A DNA stretch of 64,000 nucleotides. Source: an uncultured Acidimicrobiaceae bacterium. GTDB taxonomy: Bacteria; Actinomycetota; Acidimicrobiia; Acidimicrobiales; UBA8190. Location of the stretch: the NCBI GenBank assembly GCA_963842145.1, contig CAWJFJ010000012.1, forward strand, positions 227,060 to 291,059, given 5' to 3'. The translations under genes and the position numbers were made by a program. Each line of letters opens with the position of its first letter. The first letter of the stretch is position 1. The notes beneath the pieces are model-generated. The model saw only the letters and a program-made list of their open reading frames with translations. It did not search any database and was not told where the DNA came from. Positions 1 to 5,999 of this stretch are shown piece by piece.

Positions 1-64
1 GATGTCGTTCGGGGAAGCCTGGGTGGGAAGTGCAGTTGGACTGCCCGCGCTCGCGGTAACACCC

Positions 65-275
65 GGAGTAGTGCGGGTGGCAAGGGGCTTCGGACCGTCC
101 GGGATTGCCGGTGATGCGCTACTTCCCGGCAGTCGATTGGCGGCTGGGCCGCACTATATTGCTCGCCGGTGGAGATCCTGAGCGGGTCGCCCATGGCCGG
201 TCCCCCCCGAATCCGGCGAAACCTGCCGGACACAGAGGCAGGAACCGGCCAGGCATATCAGCGAGTATCGAGCGT
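65..275 (+). repeat. Dispersed intergenic repeat, long-form copy D
   Basis: ATTGCCGGTGATGCGCT at 104-120, TATTGCTCG at 157-165 and GAGATCCTGAGCGGGTCGCCC at about 172-192. Aligns with 7318-7530 over about 170-210 nt at roughly 65-70% identity by eye. No convincing CDS overlaps it. Confidence 0.7.
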
Positions 276-355
276 CTTCGATCCCAACTTGTGTTCCCAA
301 CCTCCAACCGTCACCCGCATCTCGTGAGCACCACGACGCCTGGCGAAGCTCCCGG

Positions 356-1645
356 TTACCAGGGAAGCCCGGAGCCCCCGGCTGATCCGAAGAACCCTGC
401 GTCACCGAAGCTGAACACACCGCCATCGGCGCCGACCAGCCAGTACCCCAAATCACCGTGGGTGGCCGCAATCCCGACGATGGGGGCGGCGGGCCGGACC
501 CGCTCACCTGGAAGCGATCCGAGGAAGTGGGGCTTTGCTCCGCCCGGAGCCTTGACAGCGAAGACCCCACCGTCACCGGCCACGAACCAGGCTCCGTCAC
601 CGGTGGGTGTGACGGCGACACCGCTCACGAGGGAAGCGCGCACCACGGTGCCGATCGACAGCGTCCTGTTGCCGGTGTTGTGCACGTCCCCGTACCCGAT
701 AGCGGCGCCCAAGATCCCCGCTTCGTAGTAGCCGCCGCCGTCGGCGGTGGCTCCAAGGCCGACGAAGGGCTCGTCGGTGAGGCCAGTGGCGAGGTTGGCC
801 GGTTGGGGGGCCGAGCCCAGGAAGGGAGCGGCACCGAAGCTGAAGACGCCGCCGTCCTCGCCCAGGAGCCAGTAGCCACCGCCGGCCGGATCGGCGGTGA
901 TGCCGACGATCGTGTCGGCGGTGAGGGCGAGGTAGGGAGCGTCGGGTACGACGTGTTGCCCGGGCAACGAGCCGCAGAACTTGGCGTCACCGAAGCTGAA
1001 TACACCGCCATCGGCGCCGACCAGCCAGTACCCGCCCCCGTCGGTGGTGGCGGCGATCCCGACGATGGGGGCGGCGGGCACGACCCCTTCACCCGGCAGA
1101 GAGCCGTAGAAGTGGGCGTCGCCGTAGCTGAAGACCCCGCCGCCCGCCTGGGTCAGCCAGTAGCCCTTCCCATCCGGGGTGGGGGCGATCCCGACGAAGC
1201 GCGACGGCAGAGGGATCGTGACCGTGAAGGGCACGGACACGGTGATCTCGGAACTGGCGAAGTTGGACGTGTTGCAGGCCAGGGAGAACATGTAGTGACC
1301 GGCGGACACCGACGCGCCGGGAGGGGCATTGGGGGACCCGAGGACGCTTGGAATGACGAAGCGTTGGCTACCTCTACTCGCGTTGTATGGCAGGAGGGTG
1401 CCGCTGCTCCGCGCTTTCGCTGGCCCGAACTCCACGGGCCCACAGCCGTCGTTCGCCGGAGAGGAGAACGTCACGGTGACGACCGAACCGATCGACCCTG
1501 CGCTGGAGCTCACCGAGAGTCTCGGCGCAACCGTCGCTCCGGCAAGCGAAGGCACAACGATAACGGCTCCAGCAGCAATGGCTACCGTCCCGGCCACGAC
1601 CGTCGAGACACGAACCCACGCTGTCCTTCGACTTCTGGTCTTCAT
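356..1645 (-). CDS. Secreted or membrane-anchored repeat protein (N-terminal signal/TM, Ig-like segment, then about six GYWLVGADGGVFSFGDAxFxGS repeats; beta-propeller-like)
   Basis: ORF 356..1810. An internal ATG at 1645 gives MKTRSRRTAWVRVSTVVAGTVAIAAGAVIVVPSLAGA (basic N-terminus plus hydrophobic helix). The 40-50 aa repeat unit recurs about six times. Start choice is an inference. Confidence 0.75.
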   Translation of the reverse strand: MKTRSRRTAWVRVSTVVAGTVAIAAGAVIVVPSLAGATVAPRLSVSSSAGSIGSVVTVTFSSPANDGCGPVEFGPAKARSSGTLLPYNASRGSQRFVIPSVLGSPNAPPGASVSAGHYMFSLACNTSNFASSEITVSVPFTVTIPLPSRFVGIAPTPDGKGYWLTQAGGGVFSYGDAHFYGSLPGEGVVPAAPIVGIAATTDGGGYWLVGADGGVFSFGDAKFCGSLPGQHVVPDAPYLALTADTIVGITADPAGGGYWLLGEDGGVFSFGAAPFLGSAPQPANLATGLTDEPFVGLGATADGGGYYEAGILGAAIGYGDVHNTGNRTLSIGTVVRASLVSGVAVTPTGDGAWFVAGDGGVFAVKAPGGAKPHFLGSLPGERVRPAAPIVGIAATHGDLGYWLVGADGGVFSFGDAGFFGSAGGSGLPW

Positions 1646-1881
1646 GTCTGTTCCCCTCGTTGGCGACGCGCAACAAGCGGCGTCGAGATGGCAGATACGA
1701 CCTCGCCGCTTCCCAAGCAGCGCCCGTGATCCAGTCTTCTTCTCGGCAGTCCTTGGCGCAACGCGCAGGCCAGGTAGGGCCAAAAGCCCCCTGGTAACCC
1801 CCCCCGTCACCGCTGACCACTCAGACGGCCGGGTGCGGGAAGCTCAAAACAAGGTCAGTCACTACCGCCTGATGGCGACCG

Positions 1882-1906
1882 GGATCACTTCATATGTGGG
1901 TGATCC
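1882..1906. repeat. Left end site of the double-recombinase element (imperfect palindrome GGATCAC-N11-GTGATCC)
   Basis: GGATCACTTCATATGTGGGTGATCC. Its outer 14 nt, TATGTGGGTGATCC (1893-1906), are the exact reverse complement of 4255-4268. Confidence 0.75.
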
Positions 1907-1966
1907 ACCAGGCGGGATGACGTCACCGGCAGGGTGGAGCCTTCCCGATGGAAGGAGATCACCCAC

Positions 1967-3005
1967 ATGCCGCTCCAGTTATCAGTTGAGCGTTCTTTAG
2001 CTCCCTCGGGCGAGCAGGTCGTCCGACTCGGACACGAGCTTCTCGACGACTACCTGACGTTCCTCGCAGGCCGAGCCCGGCCAAACTCTGTCCTGGCCGC
2101 CGCCTTCGATCTGAAGGTGTTCTTCTGCTTCGTGCAGAAGGAACCGGCGCAGGTCACGAGCCGTGACGTGCTCAACTTCATCGGCGCCCAGCGAGCACCA
2201 CGGACGCAGACGAAGGTCGTGCGCATCTCCGATGGCGGATCGGGACTGTCGGCCCGGACGGTGGCCCGGCGGCTGTCGTCGATCTCGGGATTATTCGCCT
2301 ACCTGATTGTGCGCGGAGACGCCGGCGTGTCCACGTCGCCGGTGCCGAGGGGATTGATGACTCGCCGGGCCCGACGAAACAATGGGCGGGCGGCGCCGCT
2401 CGTGCGCACGCCGAAACTCCTGCCGAGAATCCTGCAGCCGCAGGAGGTTGACTCTCTGGTGGCTGCGCTGCGCACAAAGAGGGACAGGGGCCATGGTCGA
2501 GGCCATGGTCCTCGGTGGCCTGCGACGCTGCGAGGTGCTCGGTCTGCGGATGGCCGACCTCCAGATCGGTGAGCGCAAGGTGTTCATCGCCGACGGGAAA
2601 GGCGGACGCCAGCGCGTCGTTCCCATGTCGGGGCGGTTCTTTGCATCGGTGGCCCGCTATCTCAACGAGGAACGCCCCGCTGACGCCGTCACCGACGTGG
2701 TCTTCGTCGTGTTGAAGGGTAAGCGTCGGGGACAGCCGTTGTCGGCCTATGGGATCGACGAGATCCTCGAGTTGGCCAAGGAGCGGGCCGGCCTTGTCCA
2801 CGCCACGTGCCATGAGCTGCGCCACACGTGTCTCACGCGACTTCGTGAAGCGGGCATGGCTCTCGAAGCCGTGCAGGCCCAGGCCGGGCACGCCTCGATC
2901 GAGACCACCCGCCTCTATCTGCACCTGGCCGACGACTGGTTGGCCGGCGAGTACCGCCGGGCATCGGAAGCCATCGACGCCCAGGCCCTGGCGGTGGTCC
3001 GATGA
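1967..3005 (+). pseudogene. Tyrosine recombinase/integrase 1, frameshifted
   Basis: The N-terminal SAM-like domain is in the frame of ORF 1934..2572 and the catalytic domain (HELRHTCLT, GHASIETTRLYLH) is in the frame of ORF 2382..3005. The frames rejoin as LRTKRDR/AMVEAMVLGGLR if one G is removed from GGGG at 2487-2490. RBS GGAAGGAG precedes the ATG at 1967. Confidence 0.8.
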
Positions 3006-4237
3006 AGGCCCTTGCACACACGCATTCGGCGCCCTCTCTGTCCGAGACCATCGCGGCCTATCTGGGCCGAATTGTCGTTGTCTTTGCGGCCTCAAAGTGT
3101 GACCAGCTTCGGGAGCGACCTGAGGATGTTCGCCTTCTTTCTCGCCGACAACCATCCGGAGGTCCAGGGGGCCAGTGACCTCGAGCGCCGTCACATCGAG
3201 AGCTACAAGAGCCATATGGCCACCGCCACCGGAACCAAGGGCCGGCGCCTGGCCACGGCCACCGTCCGGCGGCGGCTGTCGACGCTGCGGATGTTCCTGG
3301 AACGCATCACGGAATGGGGTTGGGACGACGCCCCGCCCCGGGTGCTCATCTTCGCCGGGGATCTGCCCAAGTGCGACGAGCCGTTGCCCAAGTTCTTGGA
3401 CGACGCCCGCTTCGCCGCTTTCATGCGGGCAGCCAGGAGCGAACCCCGTCCCCTTCTGCGCCTGACCATCGAATTGCTGGCCGGACGGGCATGCGGGTGG
3501 GCGAACTGTGCGACCTCGAAGCCGACGCCACGGTGAAGATCGGCGACACCCACTGGCTGCGCATCCCGGTCGGGAAGCTCCACAACGACCGCTACATTCC
3601 GCTGCATCCCCAGCTCGTCGACATGCTCGAGGAGTGGTCGCATCACCCTGACTGCGGGGTGGGAGGCCGGCTGCTCAGCATCGAGGGTCGTCCGCTCAAC
3701 CGGCATGCCGTCACCCGCATGTGCGACCGTTGTGCGAAGAAGGCGGGCATCGGACACGTCCACCCCCATCAGTTGCGGCACACCGTGGCCACCCAAGCGG
3801 TGAACCGCGGCATGAGCCTCGAGGCCATCGCCGCCCTCCTCGGCCATCGTTCCATGTCCATGACGATGACCTATGCCCGCATCGCCGACCGGACCGTGGC
3901 CGACGAGTACTTCGCCGTGAGCGAGAAGGTCGAAGCTCTGTATGACAAGGCCCCCATCTTGTCGGCCAACGCCGAAGGTCCGAGCATGCGCCGTCTGCGC
4001 CGTGAGCACCACCGAATGCTCGGCAACGGCCTCTGCACCCGGCCTGTCGAACTCGATTGCGCCTTCGAGACCATCTGCGAGAGCTGCACCTACTTCGCCA
4101 CGTCTGTCGAGTTCCGTCCGACGCTGCGGCGACAGCTGAAAGACGCCACCCGCAAGGGCCAGACCGGCCGCCAGAAGCTCTTCAGCGGCCTTCTCGAGGG
4201 GATCGAAGGGGTGAAGGACCTCAAAGGCGAGCAATAA
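3002..4237 (+). pseudogene. Tyrosine recombinase/integrase 2 (Cys-rich C-terminal extension), at least two frameshifts
   Basis: The ATG at 3002 overlaps the upstream stop. Reading switches frame near 3065-3075 and again at GCCGG 3480-3484 (expected GCCCGG, giving ELLARTGMRVGELC). The catalytic part (HQLRHTVAT, GHRSMSMTMTYA) and the CxxxxxxCxxxxCxxC tail are in ORF 3314..4237. Confidence 0.75.
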
Positions 4238-4254
4238 TCAAGGATCAATCGGAC

Positions 4255-4280
4255 GGATCACCCACATAACACCCTGATTC
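4255..4280. repeat. Right end site of the double-recombinase element
   Basis: GGATCACCCACATAACACCCTGATTC. The first 14 nt are the inverted copy of 1893-1906, and the distal TGATTC resembles the TGATCC arm of the left site. Confidence 0.7.
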
Positions 4281-5575
4281 ATGATTGGGGCGGCGCTGGG
4301 CTTCGGTTCTAGCGTCTCGGGAGCTTGGCGGCCTGGCTCTGTAACACCCTGCCGCCTGAGGGTTGGCCTCAAGTAACGAAGTGTCAGCCGCCGAGTTCCT
4401 CGGCCACGGCGTGGCTCGAAAGAGGCGAGCAAGAACCGGTCTCATCAGGACTGCCCGACGTGGCTCCCACCAGCGACCAGGGAGGAACACGATGGTGCTC
4501 ATCGGCATCGATCCGCACAAGGCGACTCACACTGCGGTGGCGGTCGACACAGAAGAGACGGCACTGGCCGAGCTCACGGTGAAAGCAGACCGTCACCAGG
4601 TCGAGCGTCTCCTCAAATGGGCGATCGACTTTCCGGATCGACGCTGGGCCGTCGAGTCGGCCAACGGGCTCGGGTTCTTGTTAGCCCAGCAGCTCGTGGC
4701 TGCCGGCGAAGACGTCGTCGACGTCCCGCCCACCTTGGCGGCCCGGGTTCGGGTCCTCGGGTCGGGCAAGACGCAGAAGAACGACCGCAACGACGCCTTG
4801 TCCACCGCCATCGCCGCGATGCGGGCCAAGAGACTGCGCAACGTCGTGGCCGAGGACCACGGAGGCGTCTTGCGCCTGCTGGTGGATCACCATCACGACC
4901 TGGGGTCGCTGCGCACCCAGGCCGTCTGTCGGCTCCATGCCCTGGTGCGGTGCCTAATCCCAGGTGGGACGGGAGTTCGGCTCTCCCGCGGCCCGTGCGG
5001 CGGTTGTGCTGCGCAGTGTGCGACCGACCAATGCAGTGGACGTCGAACGCAAGCGCATGGCTCTTGGTCATGTGGCTGACATCAGACGTCTCGACGCCGA
5101 GATCGCCGCGTCCAAGGTCCGCATCGAGACCGCCGTGGCGGCCTCGGGCACGAGTGTGACCGAGCTCTATGGCGTCGGGCCGGTCGTGGCCGCCTTTCTG
5201 ATCGGCCACAGCGGCGACATGGCGCGGTTCGCCAACAGGGACCACTACGCCTCGTATAACGCCACGGCTCCTATCGAAGCCTCGAGCGGTCCGAGGGTGC
5301 GGCACCGGCTCAACCCCCGGGGCAACCGACGCCTCAACCACGCCATCCATGTGATCGCCATCTGCCAGATCCGCCACCCGACCGAAGGGCGGAAGTACTT
5401 CGATCGCAAGGTGGCCGAGGGCAAGACCACCAAGGAAGCGTTGCGGGCACTCAAGCGTCAGATCTCGAACGTCGTGTATCGCCAGCTGGTCATCGATTCC
5501 GGCAGGTGACATAGCGGACCCGGGAGGGCAAGTAGGGGCGACTCCTATGGCCAGCGCGACCGGCTCACACCCTGA
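4269..5575 (+). mobile_element. IS110-family element 1 (boundaries tentative)
   Basis: The transposase lies at 4492-5509. ACACCCTGA occurs at 4269-4277 and 5567-5575, which would delimit about 1.3 kb, a typical IS110 size. No terminal inverted repeats, as expected for this family. Confidence 0.4.
4492..5509 (+). pseudogene. IS110-family (DEDD) transposase, frameshifted
   Basis: The N-terminal part, MVLIGIDPHKATHTAVAVD...KNDRNDA, is in ORF 4363..5079. The C-terminal part, ...GVGPVVAAFLIGHSGDMARF...RLNHAIHVIA..., is in ORF 4964..5509. The frame changes near 4960-4972. RBS GGGAGGA precedes the ATG at 4492. Confidence 0.85.
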
Positions 5576-5842
5576 CACCGGCTCTTCAGTTCGGCCACTT
5601 CCCGGATCCAGCACAACGATACGTCCGGCCCCCGGCCGGCGCTTCAGCGCGCCCAAATGACCCCTCTTGACAGAAAGAGGCTTCGTGTTGGTATGGGCCA
5701 CGAGGGGTCACACCAGACCAGATCCTCGCCCCGCGACAGACTGCCCAAGGCGACCTCAGGCCGTCCGGTATCACCTCGGTGACCGGGCGCAATGTCGCCC
5801 CCGCCACCCAGCGATATTGATGATCCAGTGAGGCCCTGAGGA

Positions 5843-5938
5843 AGTCGTCGAAAGGTGCAACCACTCACAATCACGCGTCGCCGTCAATACAGTCGTCGAA
5901 AGGTGCAACCACTCACAATCACGCGTCGCCGTCGATAC
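5843..5938. repeat. Tandem duplication, 2 x 48 bp
   Basis: AGTCGTCGAAAGGTGCAACCACTCACAATCACGCGTCGCCGTC(A/G)ATAC at 5843-5890 and 5891-5938, with one mismatch. Confidence 0.95.
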
Positions 5939-5999
5939 AGCGCGGGCCGATCCCGGGTCGGCTCCAGAGGAACACTGGCACCTGTCGGATGGCCGGAGC

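What the first reader, a model, noticed from the sequence alone, without database searches (positions are those of the whole stretch)
1882..4280. Two tandem tyrosine recombinases enclosed by a perfect 14-bp inverted repeat with palindromic end sites
- TATGTGGGTGATCC (1893-1906) and GGATCACCCACATA (4255-4268) are exact reverse complements and bracket only the two overlapping recombinase genes, a unit of 2376 bp.
- By my rough estimate, a chance 14-mer inverted repeat within a few hundred bp of both gene ends has a probability below 1e-3.
- Each end sits in a roughly 25-bp imperfect palindrome: GGATCAC-N11-GTGATCC on the left and GGATCAC-N13-TGATTC on the right. This is the architecture of a tyrosine-recombinase core site, with two inverted arms around a spacer.
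- Pairs of tyrosine recombinases are known from Tn554-like elements (TnpA/TnpB), but a compact inverted-repeat-bounded unit carrying nothing else is unusual.
- Both genes are frameshifted, so the copy is probably inactive.
Basis: partly seen in the sequence, partly recalled or inferred. Interest (0 to 1): 0.65.

Follow-up and report, generated by a model that had tools for sequence, protein, structure and literature searches.

The report
Minimal Tn554-family two-recombinase transposon
This is a 2.4-kb cargo-free jumping gene of soil Actinomycetota, a stripped-down relative of the staphylococcal resistance transposon Tn554, and its two inverted 14-bp ends are the halves of the site its two tyrosine recombinases act on: a real, widespread element, but a variant of a known kind.

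Summary
The 14-bp inverted repeat is real and functional. It recurs at the same two positions in about 20 related elements, and where it varies, both ends change together. The two genes are orthologues of Tn554 TnpA (Rec1) and TnpB (Rec2), not RIT, BIM or XerC/D. Rec2 lacks TnpB's ~200-aa N-terminal domain. There is no TnpC and no cargo. The unit is about 2,384 bp (window 1886-4269).

Joining its ends predicts a 14-8-14 palindromic core site. Twenty junction pairs place the crossover on a 3-bp lineage-specific identity (CAC here) inside the 8-bp spacer. Targets resemble C(C/G)GGTA-N8-TA(T/C)(G/C).

The right outer arm lies in an abutting IS110.

Two of the three frameshifts (both in Rec2) are assembly errors. 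The +G in Rec1 at 2487-2490 is genuine, so this copy is probably non-autonomous.

No circle or clean empty site was found. Mobility is inferred from near-identical copies with unrelated flanks.

Verdict: a new variant of a known kind, of moderate interest.

The parts
1879..1885 (.). Left target half-site CCGGGAT. It matches the target consensus C(C/G)GGTA-N and is not part of the element.
   Evidence: Flanks of 19 insertions give C(C/G)GGTA at positions -5..0 before the spacer. L002 and L003, 99.9% identical inside the element, differ here.
1886..4269 (+). The element, 2,384 bp if the shared CAC is counted once (equivalently 1889-4272).
   Evidence: Homology with L001 runs over window 1886-4273 and with L002 over 1879-4273. 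The L002/L003 copies define 2,390 bp. A contig from run X5 switches to a different flank at 1880.
1886..1888 (+). CAC, the left copy of the 3-bp crossover identity (spacer positions 2-4).
   Evidence: The same triplet follows the right arm at 4270-4272. The triplet is lineage-specific (CAC, CCC, TGC, GTG) and matches at both junctions in 18 of 20 insertions, and in 2 of 3 bases in the other two.
1893..1906 (+). Left terminal arm TATGTGGGTGATCC (the P' half of the predicted joined site).
   Evidence: It is conserved about 74 bp upstream of Rec1 in relatives and co-varies with the right arm.
1950..1969 (+). Ribosome-binding site GGAAGGAG (1950-1957) and the Rec1 ATG (1967-1969), overlapped by an internal inverted copy of the arm (1956-1969, minus strand, 12 of 14).
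   Evidence: As RNA, the left arm pairs with this copy (-42.7 kcal/mol, z = -3.1). The internal copy is present only in the closest relatives (L001-L003, L061). GGAAGGAG is invariant across clade 1.
1967..3005 (+). Rec1, the TnpA-type tyrosine recombinase (345 aa if read through). It carries a genuine +1 frameshift in the G run at 2487-2490.
   Evidence: Pfam PF00589 at 9e-36. It is closest to S. aureus TnpA (E = 2.6e-34, against 1.4e-12 for TnpB) and falls in the TnpA clade. The frameshift is reproduced in L081, L082 and contigs of X1, X2, X3 and X6.
3002..4237 (+). Rec2, a short TnpB-type tyrosine recombinase (411 aa once two assembly errors at 3069 and 3477 are corrected). It has a C-terminal C-x8-C-x5-C-x2-C motif.
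   Evidence: PF00589 at 8e-30. It aligns to residues 225-624 of the 637-aa S. aureus TnpB (E = 5.8e-35). The corrected ORF comes from L081. The four Cys are invariant in 45 homologues.
4255..4268 (-). Right terminal arm GGATCACCCACATA (the P half of the predicted joined site).
   Evidence: It lies 20-40 bp after the Rec2 stop in the closest relatives (L001-L006) and co-varies with the left arm.
4269..4272 (+). A (spacer position 1, always A at right junctions) plus CAC, the right copy of the crossover identity.
4270..5685 (+). IS110-family insertion sequence abutting the right end.
   Evidence: Depth rises 10- to 25-fold from about 4270 to about 5685, with loose ends at 4270 and 5685. The protein has DEDD_Tnp_IS110 and Transposase_20 domains. 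Its apparent frameshift at 4985 is also an assembly error.

Best explanation
The feature is an integrated copy of a minimal, cargo-free transposon of the Tn554 family. It encodes a TnpA-type and a shortened TnpB-type tyrosine recombinase.

Shown here: the two 14-bp inverted repeats are conserved terminal arms that co-evolve. Each junction carries the same 3-bp lineage-specific triplet (CAC here) in direct orientation. Insertion adds no target duplication beyond that triplet. Near-identical copies sit in unrelated flanks.

Inferred: the recombinases pair the two ends and exchange strands at the triplet. This releases or copies out a circle whose junction is GGATCACCCACATA-ACACTTCA-TATGTGGGTGATCC, two 14-bp arms around an 8-bp spacer, as in loxP or FRT. 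The circle then recombines with degenerate pseudo-sites of the form C(C/G)GGTA-N-XYZ-C(C/G)G-N-TA(T/C)(G/C) whose spacer positions 2-4 match the element's own. Identity is limited to 2-3 bp, and all 20 junction pairs have the same configuration. This suggests one decisive strand exchange with a 3-nt homology check, rather than branch migration across a 6-8-bp overlap.

The window copy has a real frameshift in the TnpA-type gene. It could therefore move only if another copy supplied TnpA. It sits exactly at the left tip of an IS110 copy.
For: Arms: present at equivalent positions in about 20 loci with at least 8 distinct arm sequences. The two ends always match (for example GGGTCATC/GATGACCC in L004, GGGCCATC/GATGGCCC in L005, GCCGGTGATC in 7 loci). 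A different perfect 13-15-bp terminal repeat (TTGACCGGCTAATC) bounds the distant three-gene relatives.

Orthology: reciprocal BLAST and a tree place Rec1 with TnpA and Rec2 with TnpB of a staphylococcal Tn554-family module whose TnpC is a DUF6262 protein.

Mobility: L002 and L003 in one MAG are 99.9% identical over 2,390 bp with unrelated flanks. The same lineage has further flanks in soil runs X25 and X26. Rec2 has 6,705 homologues at E <= 1e-20, many on contigs of about 2.4 kb.

Junction rule, target logo and predicted 14-8-14 sites. In the L002 lineage three of four right flanks begin with TATG exactly 8 nt after the arm (L002 itself has TACC).

Partial empty site: an orthologous intergenic region in another MAG reads ...CCGTCCGGTG-C-TGC-CGGT... 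uninterrupted where L004 carries the element. Other IS110 copies read ...GGGAT-CACCCTGATTC uninterrupted where the window has the element between GGGAT and CAC.
Against: No circular junction was found. The exact 14-N(6-10)-14 pattern is absent from metagenome contigs and from all fetched loci, and no go-back or skipping joints appeared in 12 runs.

No clean empty site with both flanks homologous was recovered. In the L002/L004 comparison homology ends 7 nt past the crossover.

A 3-bp overlap is shorter than the 6-8 bp typical of tyrosine recombinases, and shorter than the 6-bp core or footprint reported for Tn554 (PMC10214605). The strand-exchange details are therefore inference.

The 19 insertions in the target logo (20 junction pairs) come from related elements and are not fully independent. 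Activity of a short TnpB without TnpC has never been tested.
Confidence: 0.8

Rival explanations
1. A degenerate RIT (recombinase-in-trio) element that has lost one of its three recombinase genes.
For: RITs are also compact and cargo-free, have overlapping tyrosine-recombinase genes, and are bounded by terminal inverted repeats (34 bp; PMC10214605).
Against: Against a real RIT trio (L084; 407, 312 and 332 aa), Rec1 scores 56, 32 and 63 bits and Rec2 scores 41, 35 and 48 bits. Against Tn554-family TnpA and TnpB they score 119 and 125 bits. The tree separates the RIT proteins from both. The terminal repeats directly bracket two genes in every close relative, leaving no room for a third.
Confidence: 0.02
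2. An invertible DNA switch. The two recombinases would flip the 2.4-kb segment between the inverted repeats, as FimB and FimE flip fimS, rather than moving it.
For: Recombination between inverted sites gives inversion, and two tandem tyrosine recombinases act on the fim switch (established knowledge).
Against: The asymmetric part of each junction (the triplet and the spacer) is in direct, not inverted, orientation at the two ends. That orientation specifies excision or integration. Near-identical copies lie at unrelated loci. No strand-changing joints were seen. Nothing inside the segment would be switched by flipping it.
Confidence: 0.03
3. A chromosomal XerC/XerD-like pair, or the integrase pair of a larger island, with the 14-mers being a chance repeat or a regulatory palindrome.
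For: The best NCBIfam matches are to the XerC, XerA and XerD models, and the nearest solved structures are Xer proteins.
Against: Scores of 113-131 bits are far below the XerC and XerD cut-offs of 330-335. The genes are multi-copy and travel with their ends. The repeat is conserved and co-varies. Chance expectation is 0.21 against 3 observed.
Confidence: 0.01
4. A dead relic. The family once moved, but the short-TnpB, TnpC-less form is a decaying derivative that is no longer mobile anywhere.
For: The window copy has a real frameshift in Rec1. Several relatives have split genes (L001, L003, L062, L065, L068). Tn554 itself needs TnpC (PMC3414803, PMC10214605).
Against: Most close homologues are full-length at 400-411 aa, with the catalytic R-K-H-R-H-Y positions and four Cys invariant or nearly so across 45 sequences. 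L002 has both genes intact, and its 99.9%-identical sister copy and extra flanks in soil runs imply recent movement. Some apparent frameshifts in long-read MAGs are demonstrably assembly errors.
Confidence: 0.12

Closest known systems
Tn554 family transposons of Staphylococcus and Enterococcus (Tn554, Tn558, Tn559, Tn6674; tnpA-tnpB-tnpC)
   Same: Two adjacent, co-directional, overlapping tyrosine-recombinase genes in the same order. Rec1 is orthologous to TnpA and Rec2 to TnpB, including the C-terminal Cys motif. Insertion is orientation-specific with no conventional target duplication, and a short core is shared by element and target. Tn554 termini are described as imperfect inverted repeats (PMC10214605).
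   Different: No TnpC. TnpB lacks its ~200-aa N-terminal domain (411 against 637 aa). No passenger genes (2.4 kb against 6-7 kb). The terminal arms are perfect 14-16-bp repeats. The shared core is 3 bp with no carried-over footprint, whereas 6 bp is reported for Tn554. Targets are degenerate pseudo-sites rather than the single att554 in radC. The hosts are Acidimicrobiia and Actinomycetes.
Actinobacterial Tn554-related elements (Van Houdt et al. 2012, PMC3414803)
   Same: Same phylum and the same tnpA/tnpB pairing, in some groups without TnpC, with multiple identical copies per genome. My classes B (L019) and C (L044) correspond to these.
   Different: That class is defined by one 'abnormally long' recombinase (611-828 aa) plus one of typical size. 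Here both are of ordinary size. The passages of that paper retrieved here describe no ends, joined-site architecture or target rule.
[quoted passage not shown]
   Same: An ordinary and a large tyrosine recombinase act together. There are 13-19-bp imperfect terminal inverted repeats. The joined ends form inverted repeats around a short spacer, and there is target specificity. A single decisive strand exchange is the model that best fits my junction data.
   Different: SEs and GInts need four proteins (IntA, Tfp, IntB, Srap), have a 6-bp spacer and footprint, carry cargo and occur in Gammaproteobacteria. No sequence relationship to them was tested here.
loxP/Cre and FRT/Flp core sites
   Same: The predicted joined site has the same geometry, two inverted arms (14 bp here) around an 8-bp asymmetric spacer that sets orientation.
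   Different: Two different recombinases are encoded, whereas Cre and Flp each act alone. The partner site is only a weak copy. Identity is needed over about 3 bp, not over the whole spacer.

Membership tests
Tn554 family | A TnpA-type tyrosine recombinase encoded first | tested here: met
   Rec1 against S. aureus TnpA: 27.7% identity over 318 aa, E = 2.6e-34, 119 bits. It groups with the TnpA clade.
Tn554 family | A TnpB-type tyrosine recombinase encoded second, overlapping tnpA | tested here: met
   Rec2 against S. aureus TnpB residues 225-624: E = 5.8e-35, 125 bits. There is an ATGA overlap at 3002-3005.
Tn554 family | TnpB is a large protein (about 630 aa) with a long N-terminal extension | tested here: not met
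   Corrected Rec2 is 411 aa and begins at the position equivalent to about residue 205-225 of TnpB. No upstream ORF space exists, because Rec1 ends at 3005.
Tn554 family | A third gene, tnpC (DUF6262), downstream of tnpB | tested here: not met
   Only 17 bp separate the Rec2 stop (4237) from the right arm (4255). No downstream ORF exists in class A loci, whereas class C relatives have a ~100-aa DUF6262 ORF.
Tn554 family | Insertion without target duplication, at a short core shared with the element | tested here: met
   A lineage-constant 3-bp triplet lies at both junctions and nothing else is duplicated. The core is 3 bp, not 6.
Tn554 family | A 6-bp footprint carried from the previous left flank to the new right junction | tested here: not met
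   Right-junction spacer position 1 is A in 20 of 20 insertions while left-junction position 1 varies. Positions 5-8 always come from the element on the left and from the target on the right.
Tn554 family | A circular form | tested here: inconclusive
   The predicted junction was not found in metagenome contigs, fetched loci or laid contigs. Assemblies drop rare molecules, so this is a weak negative.
Tn554 family | Passenger (resistance) genes | tested here: not met
   The arms bracket only the two recombinase genes, 2,384 bp.
RIT (recombinase in trio) | Three adjacent tyrosine recombinases RitA, RitB and RitC | tested here: not met
   There are two genes only. Similarity to a real trio is weak, at 32-63 bits.
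BIM (bipartite module) | One tyrosine recombinase plus a conserved SMC-domain protein | tested here: not met
   Both genes are tyrosine recombinases. The BIM definition is taken from PMC3414803.
XerC/XerD chromosome dimer resolvases | Score above the NCBIfam equivalog cut-off; single-copy housekeeping genes | tested here: not met
   Scores of 113-131 bits against cut-offs of 330-335. The genes are multi-copy with mobile flanks.
Tyrosine recombinase superfamily | Catalytic R-K-H-R-H/W-Y residues in both proteins | tested here: met
   Full-length PF00589 matches. In the Rec2 family, R165, K192, H256, R259, H282 and Y291 are invariant or at least 90% conserved. The Rec1 sequence shows LRRCEV, GKGG, HELRHT, GH and LYLH.

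The most novel reading that the evidence does not exclude
Short-TnpB, TnpC-less, cargo-free elements form a large, so far undescribed 'insertion-sequence-like' branch of the Tn554 family in soil Actinomycetota. In this branch two ordinary-sized tyrosine recombinases suffice for transposition. The two proteins may divide the labour: one binds the identical element arms, the other the degenerate GGTA/TATG target arms. A 3-bp spacer triplet may act as a simple, re-writable address for insertion.
Probability: 0.3. Interest if true: 0.55.

Novelty: new variant of a known kind. Interest (0 to 1): 0.42.

Why it matters
The transposition route of Tn554, an important carrier of resistance genes in staphylococci and enterococci, is still unresolved (PMC10214605). 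Its three proteins and large TnpB make it hard to dissect. A natural two-protein, 2.4-kb relative would give a minimal system for three questions. What does each recombinase do? Is TnpC or the TnpB N-terminal domain needed? How little homology does a tyrosine-recombinase transposon need? This element offers clean 14-bp arms, a predictable joined site and a readable target rule.

It also improves annotation. Thousands of 'XerC/XerD-like integrase' pairs in actinobacterial genomes and MAGs are in fact transposon genes.

For this window, the finding also warns that single-base indels in the assembly create false pseudogenes.

Tried and rejected
Rejected: the outer arms are not conserved, and the right one lies in the IS110.

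(2) BIM element, recalled from memory as a two-recombinase module. The paper shows BIM is one recombinase plus an SMC-like protein.

(3) RIT. Rejected by direct comparison.

(4) REP-like repeat family as the target. CCGGKATCAC occurs 4 times in the window, but two of those are in unrelated contexts, one of them inside a coding sequence. Rejected.

(5) IS110 as a regular partner of the element. It is absent from the flanks of L001-L008, so the adjacency is specific to this locus.

(6) Circle junction search in metagenome contigs: 0 hits. Head-to-head arms in fetched loci: none.

(7) Empty site through the unique left flank: only occupied copies were recovered (L081, L082).

(8) Empty site for L004 in L002: only partial, since the right flanks are unrelated beyond 7 nt.

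(9) Structure prediction to explain the Cys-rich C-terminal extension: low confidence there (pLDDT 41-67), so no fold search was run. Pfam finds nothing in that extension or in the TnpB N-terminal extension.

(10) Junction promoter: the sigma-70 scan found nothing at the ends.

(11) Rfam: nothing above threshold.

(12) Programmed frameshift at the Rec1 G run. Rejected, because relatives are in frame there.

(13) PMC12169178 (Rhodococcus circular element): unrelated.
Full report
OBSERVATION

The window reads TATGTGGGTGATCC at 1893-1906 and its exact reverse complement at 4255-4268. Allowing two mismatches, the motif occurs three times in 64 kb against 0.21 expected, and none of 100 shuffles reaches three.

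Between the repeats lie two genes that overlap in ATGA (3002-3005). Read through their frameshifts, both carry a full Phage_integrase catalytic domain and a SAM-like N-terminal domain (E = 9e-36 and 8e-30).

ARE THE FRAMESHIFTS REAL?

Against intact relatives the window has three private single-base indels: +G at about 2490, +1 at 3069 and -1 at about 3481.

Independent short-read contigs from peat and soil metagenomes are otherwise identical to the window. They remove the base at 3069 and add one at 3477-3481, but reproduce the extra G at 2490. A JGI contig of the same locus (L081) is 99.93% identical over window 1-4346. It differs at only three positions, all single-base indels: 51, 3069 and 3477.

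So the second gene is intact (411 aa, the modal length of its homologues), and its 'frameshifts' are assembly errors. The first gene carries a genuine +1 frameshift between its two domains. The apparent frameshift in the neighbouring IS110 (4985) is also an assembly error.

WHAT THE GENES ARE

The second protein has 6,705 homologues at E <= 1e-20. Most come from Acidimicrobiales and other Actinomycetota metagenomes, and many sit on contigs of 2.3-3 kb, as expected for a repeated element that breaks assemblies.

A scan of one genome per species returned 78 loci. These fall into three architectures:
- Class A: a ~345-aa protein plus a ~410-aa protein and nothing else. This includes the window, L001-L008, L010-L014, L016, L018 and L026.
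- Class B: a ~350-aa protein plus a ~600-615-aa protein (L009, L015, L017, L019, L022).
- Class C: a ~360-aa protein, a ~640-655-aa protein and a ~100-aa DUF6262 protein (Gordonia, Mycobacterium, Rhodococcus, Aldehydirespiratoraceae).

Class C is the Tn554 layout. A staphylococcal plasmid module (L079) has TnpA of 361 aa, TnpB of 637 aa and a DUF6262 TnpC of 108 aa.

Reciprocal comparison gives:
- Rec1 to TnpA: E = 2.6e-34, against 1.4e-12 to TnpB.
- Rec2 to TnpB residues 225-624: E = 5.8e-35, against 4.7e-9 to TnpA.

The Rec2 match includes a C-terminal C-x8-C-x5-C-x2-C motif whose four cysteines are invariant in 45 homologues.

Against a genuine RIT trio (L084), both proteins score only 32-63 bits, and a distance tree separates the RIT proteins from both clades. 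BIM elements are one recombinase plus an SMC-like protein. XerC and XerD model scores are about a third of the cut-offs.

The element is therefore a Tn554-family member that lacks TnpC, the N-terminal ~200 residues of TnpB, and any cargo.

THE ENDS

In relatives the arm recurs about 64-130 bp upstream of the first gene and about 20-120 bp after the second. Where it differs, both ends carry the same change:
- TATGTGGGTCATCC in L004
- TATGTGGGCCATCC in L005
- TATGCGGGTAATCC in L006
- TATGCCGGTGATCC(T) in seven Mycobacteriales-type loci
- TATGCAGGTAATCCT in L016

The distant class C elements have a different perfect 13-15-bp repeat, TTGACCGGCTAATC. At least eight arm variants with matched ends rule out chance and show that both arms are read by the same specificity.

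Two copies in one MAG (L002, L003) are 99.9% identical over 2,390 bp and unrelated outside it, which fixes the boundaries. Some lineages carry an extra arm copy. In the window's closest relatives it lies internal to the left end. In the Mycobacteriales-type clade a second right-end arm lies 32 bp inside the outer one.

JUNCTION RULE

Lining up 20 insertions gives:
- Left junction: flank ...C(C/G)GGTA - N - XYZ - TTGA (or TAGA) - TATG arm.
- Right junction: arm ...CATA - A - XYZ - C(C/G)G N - flank.

XYZ is constant within a lineage: CAC in the window and L001, CCC in L002 and L003, TGC in L004, L005, L006 and L062, and GTG in nine Mycobacteriales-type copies. It is identical at both junctions in 18 of 20 cases. 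In the other two, two of three bases match, which narrows the crossover to positions 2-3.

XYZ is therefore not a target duplication made on insertion. It is a short identity between element and target.

Joining right end to left end predicts, in every case, a palindrome of two 14-bp arms around an 8-bp spacer. For the window this is GGATCACCCACATA-ACACTTCA-TATGTGGGTGATCC.

Reconstructed targets show a modest preference. The strongest positions are A immediately before the spacer (15 of 19) and C at spacer position 5 (16 of 19). Further junctions of the L002 lineage in soil runs have left flank ...GCGGT|ATCCC and right flanks ACCCCAAA-TATGCGTGGG and ACCCCGAT-TATGGGCGGC. With L003, that makes three of four right flanks of this lineage begin with TATG exactly 8 nt after the arm, while L002 itself has TACC. 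The target is thus a weak copy of the joined site.

EMPTY-SITE EVIDENCE IS PARTIAL

The 1,063 bp to the left of the L004 insertion, the 3' end of a 934-aa cellular gene, are 94.9% identical to a region of another MAG (L002 7801-8863). There the sequence runs on as ...CCGTCCGGTG-C-TGC-CGGT... with a single TGC. In L004, TGC flanks the element on both sides and the right junction continues CGGG. Beyond those 7 nt the right flanks are unrelated.

In the window, other copies of the IS110 read ...GGGAT-CACCCTGATTC... without interruption, whereas here the element sits between GGGAT and CAC. The simplest history is that the IS110 arrived first and the recombinase pair then inserted at its left tip.

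The left one (GGATCAC-N11-GTGATCC) uses target sequence that differs in other copies.

No circle junction or skipping joint was found in metagenome contigs, fetched loci or the contigs of 12 runs. That is a weak negative, because assemblies discard rare molecules.

MECHANISM

Shown: conserved, co-varying arms; a directly repeated lineage-specific triplet at both junctions; no other duplication; recent multi-copy spread; two recombinases with complete catalytic motifs in intact members.

Inferred: the ends are brought together and strands are exchanged at the triplet. This gives a circle with a loxP-like 14-8-14 site, which then recombines with pseudo-sites that match the triplet.

Spacer position 1 and positions 5-8 never segregate. 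All 20 junction pairs have the same configuration, and the right junction always has A at position 1. A 6-8-bp heteroduplex overlap, as in Tn916 or CTnDOT, is therefore unlikely. A single decisive strand exchange with a 3-nt homology check fits better. The strand-biased model proposed for SEs and suggested for Tn554 (PMC10214605) is of this kind. I did not test this.

The left arm can pair with the internal arm copy and the ribosome-binding site as RNA (-42.7 kcal/mol, z = -3.1), which could mute read-through translation. Across clade 1 the covariation support is weak, so this is only a suggestion.

COMPARISON WITH WHAT IS KNOWN, AND NOVELTY

The element works like Tn554 and is phylogenetically inside that family. 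It fails four of the family's descriptive features: TnpC, a large TnpB, a 6-bp footprint and passenger genes.

Van Houdt et al. (PMC3414803) defined actinobacterial Tn554 relatives by one abnormally long recombinase. TnCentral's authors call the family 'restricted to the Firmicutes'. In the text I could search I found no description of the short two-gene form, its 14-8-14 joined site or its 3-bp rule.

I rate it a new variant of a known kind. It is a real, widespread and tidy element, of moderate interest mainly as a minimal model for Tn554-type transposition and as an annotation fix.

Noticed in passing
window 51, 3069, 3477, 4985: The window sequence carries single-base indel errors relative to independent short-read assemblies of the same strain (L081 and Logan contigs). 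They create false frameshifts in Rec2 and in the IS110 transposase. Other apparent pseudogenes in this window should be treated with caution.
   Followed up: yes
window 4270-5685: An IS110-family element (DEDD_Tnp_IS110 plus Transposase_20) at 10- to 25-fold higher depth than its surroundings in peat and soil metagenomes. It has a 222-nt non-coding left end, the region where IS110 elements encode their bridge RNA. Other copies are preceded by ...CCGGTAT, ...GGCGGGAT or ...CCGAGAT, the same short motif that lies left of the recombinase-pair elements. Why the two unrelated elements share this flank motif is unexplained.
   Followed up: partly
window 5741-5786: The sequence ...CTGCCCAAGGCGACCTCAGGCCGTCCGGTAT-CAC-CTCGGTGACCGG resembles the flanks that precede other IS110 copies, and shares a 12-nt identity (GGCCGTCCGGTA) with the left flank of the L004 insertion. 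It fits the target consensus with the window element's own triplet CAC, so it may be an unoccupied target site.
   Followed up: partly
window 5843-5940: Two tandem copies, 98% identical, of a 48-bp unit (AGTCGTCGAAAGGTGCAACCACTCACAATCACGCGTCGCCGTCAATAC) just downstream of the IS110.
   Followed up: no
window 356-1810 (minus strand): A 484-aa ORF with a signal-like N-terminus and about eight repeats of a GGGYWLVGADGGVFSFGDA-like motif. It has no Pfam match at E <= 0.001.
   Followed up: partly
window 5507-5600 (minus strand): A sub-threshold Rfam match to the Mycobacterium sRNA ncrMT1302 (33 bits against a gathering score of 45, E = 0.0015) inside the right end of the IS110. Probably chance.
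   Followed up: no
L044, L045, L046 (Gordonia sp. B7-2 chromosome, about 937-970 kb): Three copies of a 3.45-kb class C Tn554-like element (360, 645 and 100 aa, with TTGACCGGCTAATC ends), at least 99.8% identical, within about 23 kb of one chromosome. L040 holds two related elements in opposite orientation.
   Followed up: partly
L010, L012, L018, L023, L026, L065 right ends: Mycobacteriales-type class A elements carry two direct copies of the right arm 32 bp apart. These are possible accessory recombinase-binding sites. The window clade instead has its extra copy at the left end.
   Followed up: partly
PDB entry 9i5v, chain 14: The best solved-structure match of Rec2 (E = 5e-20 over residues 25-303) is a 401-residue chain labelled 'ribosome-associated translation inhibitor RaiA'. 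That name does not fit a tyrosine-recombinase-like sequence, so the chain may be mislabelled.
   Followed up: no
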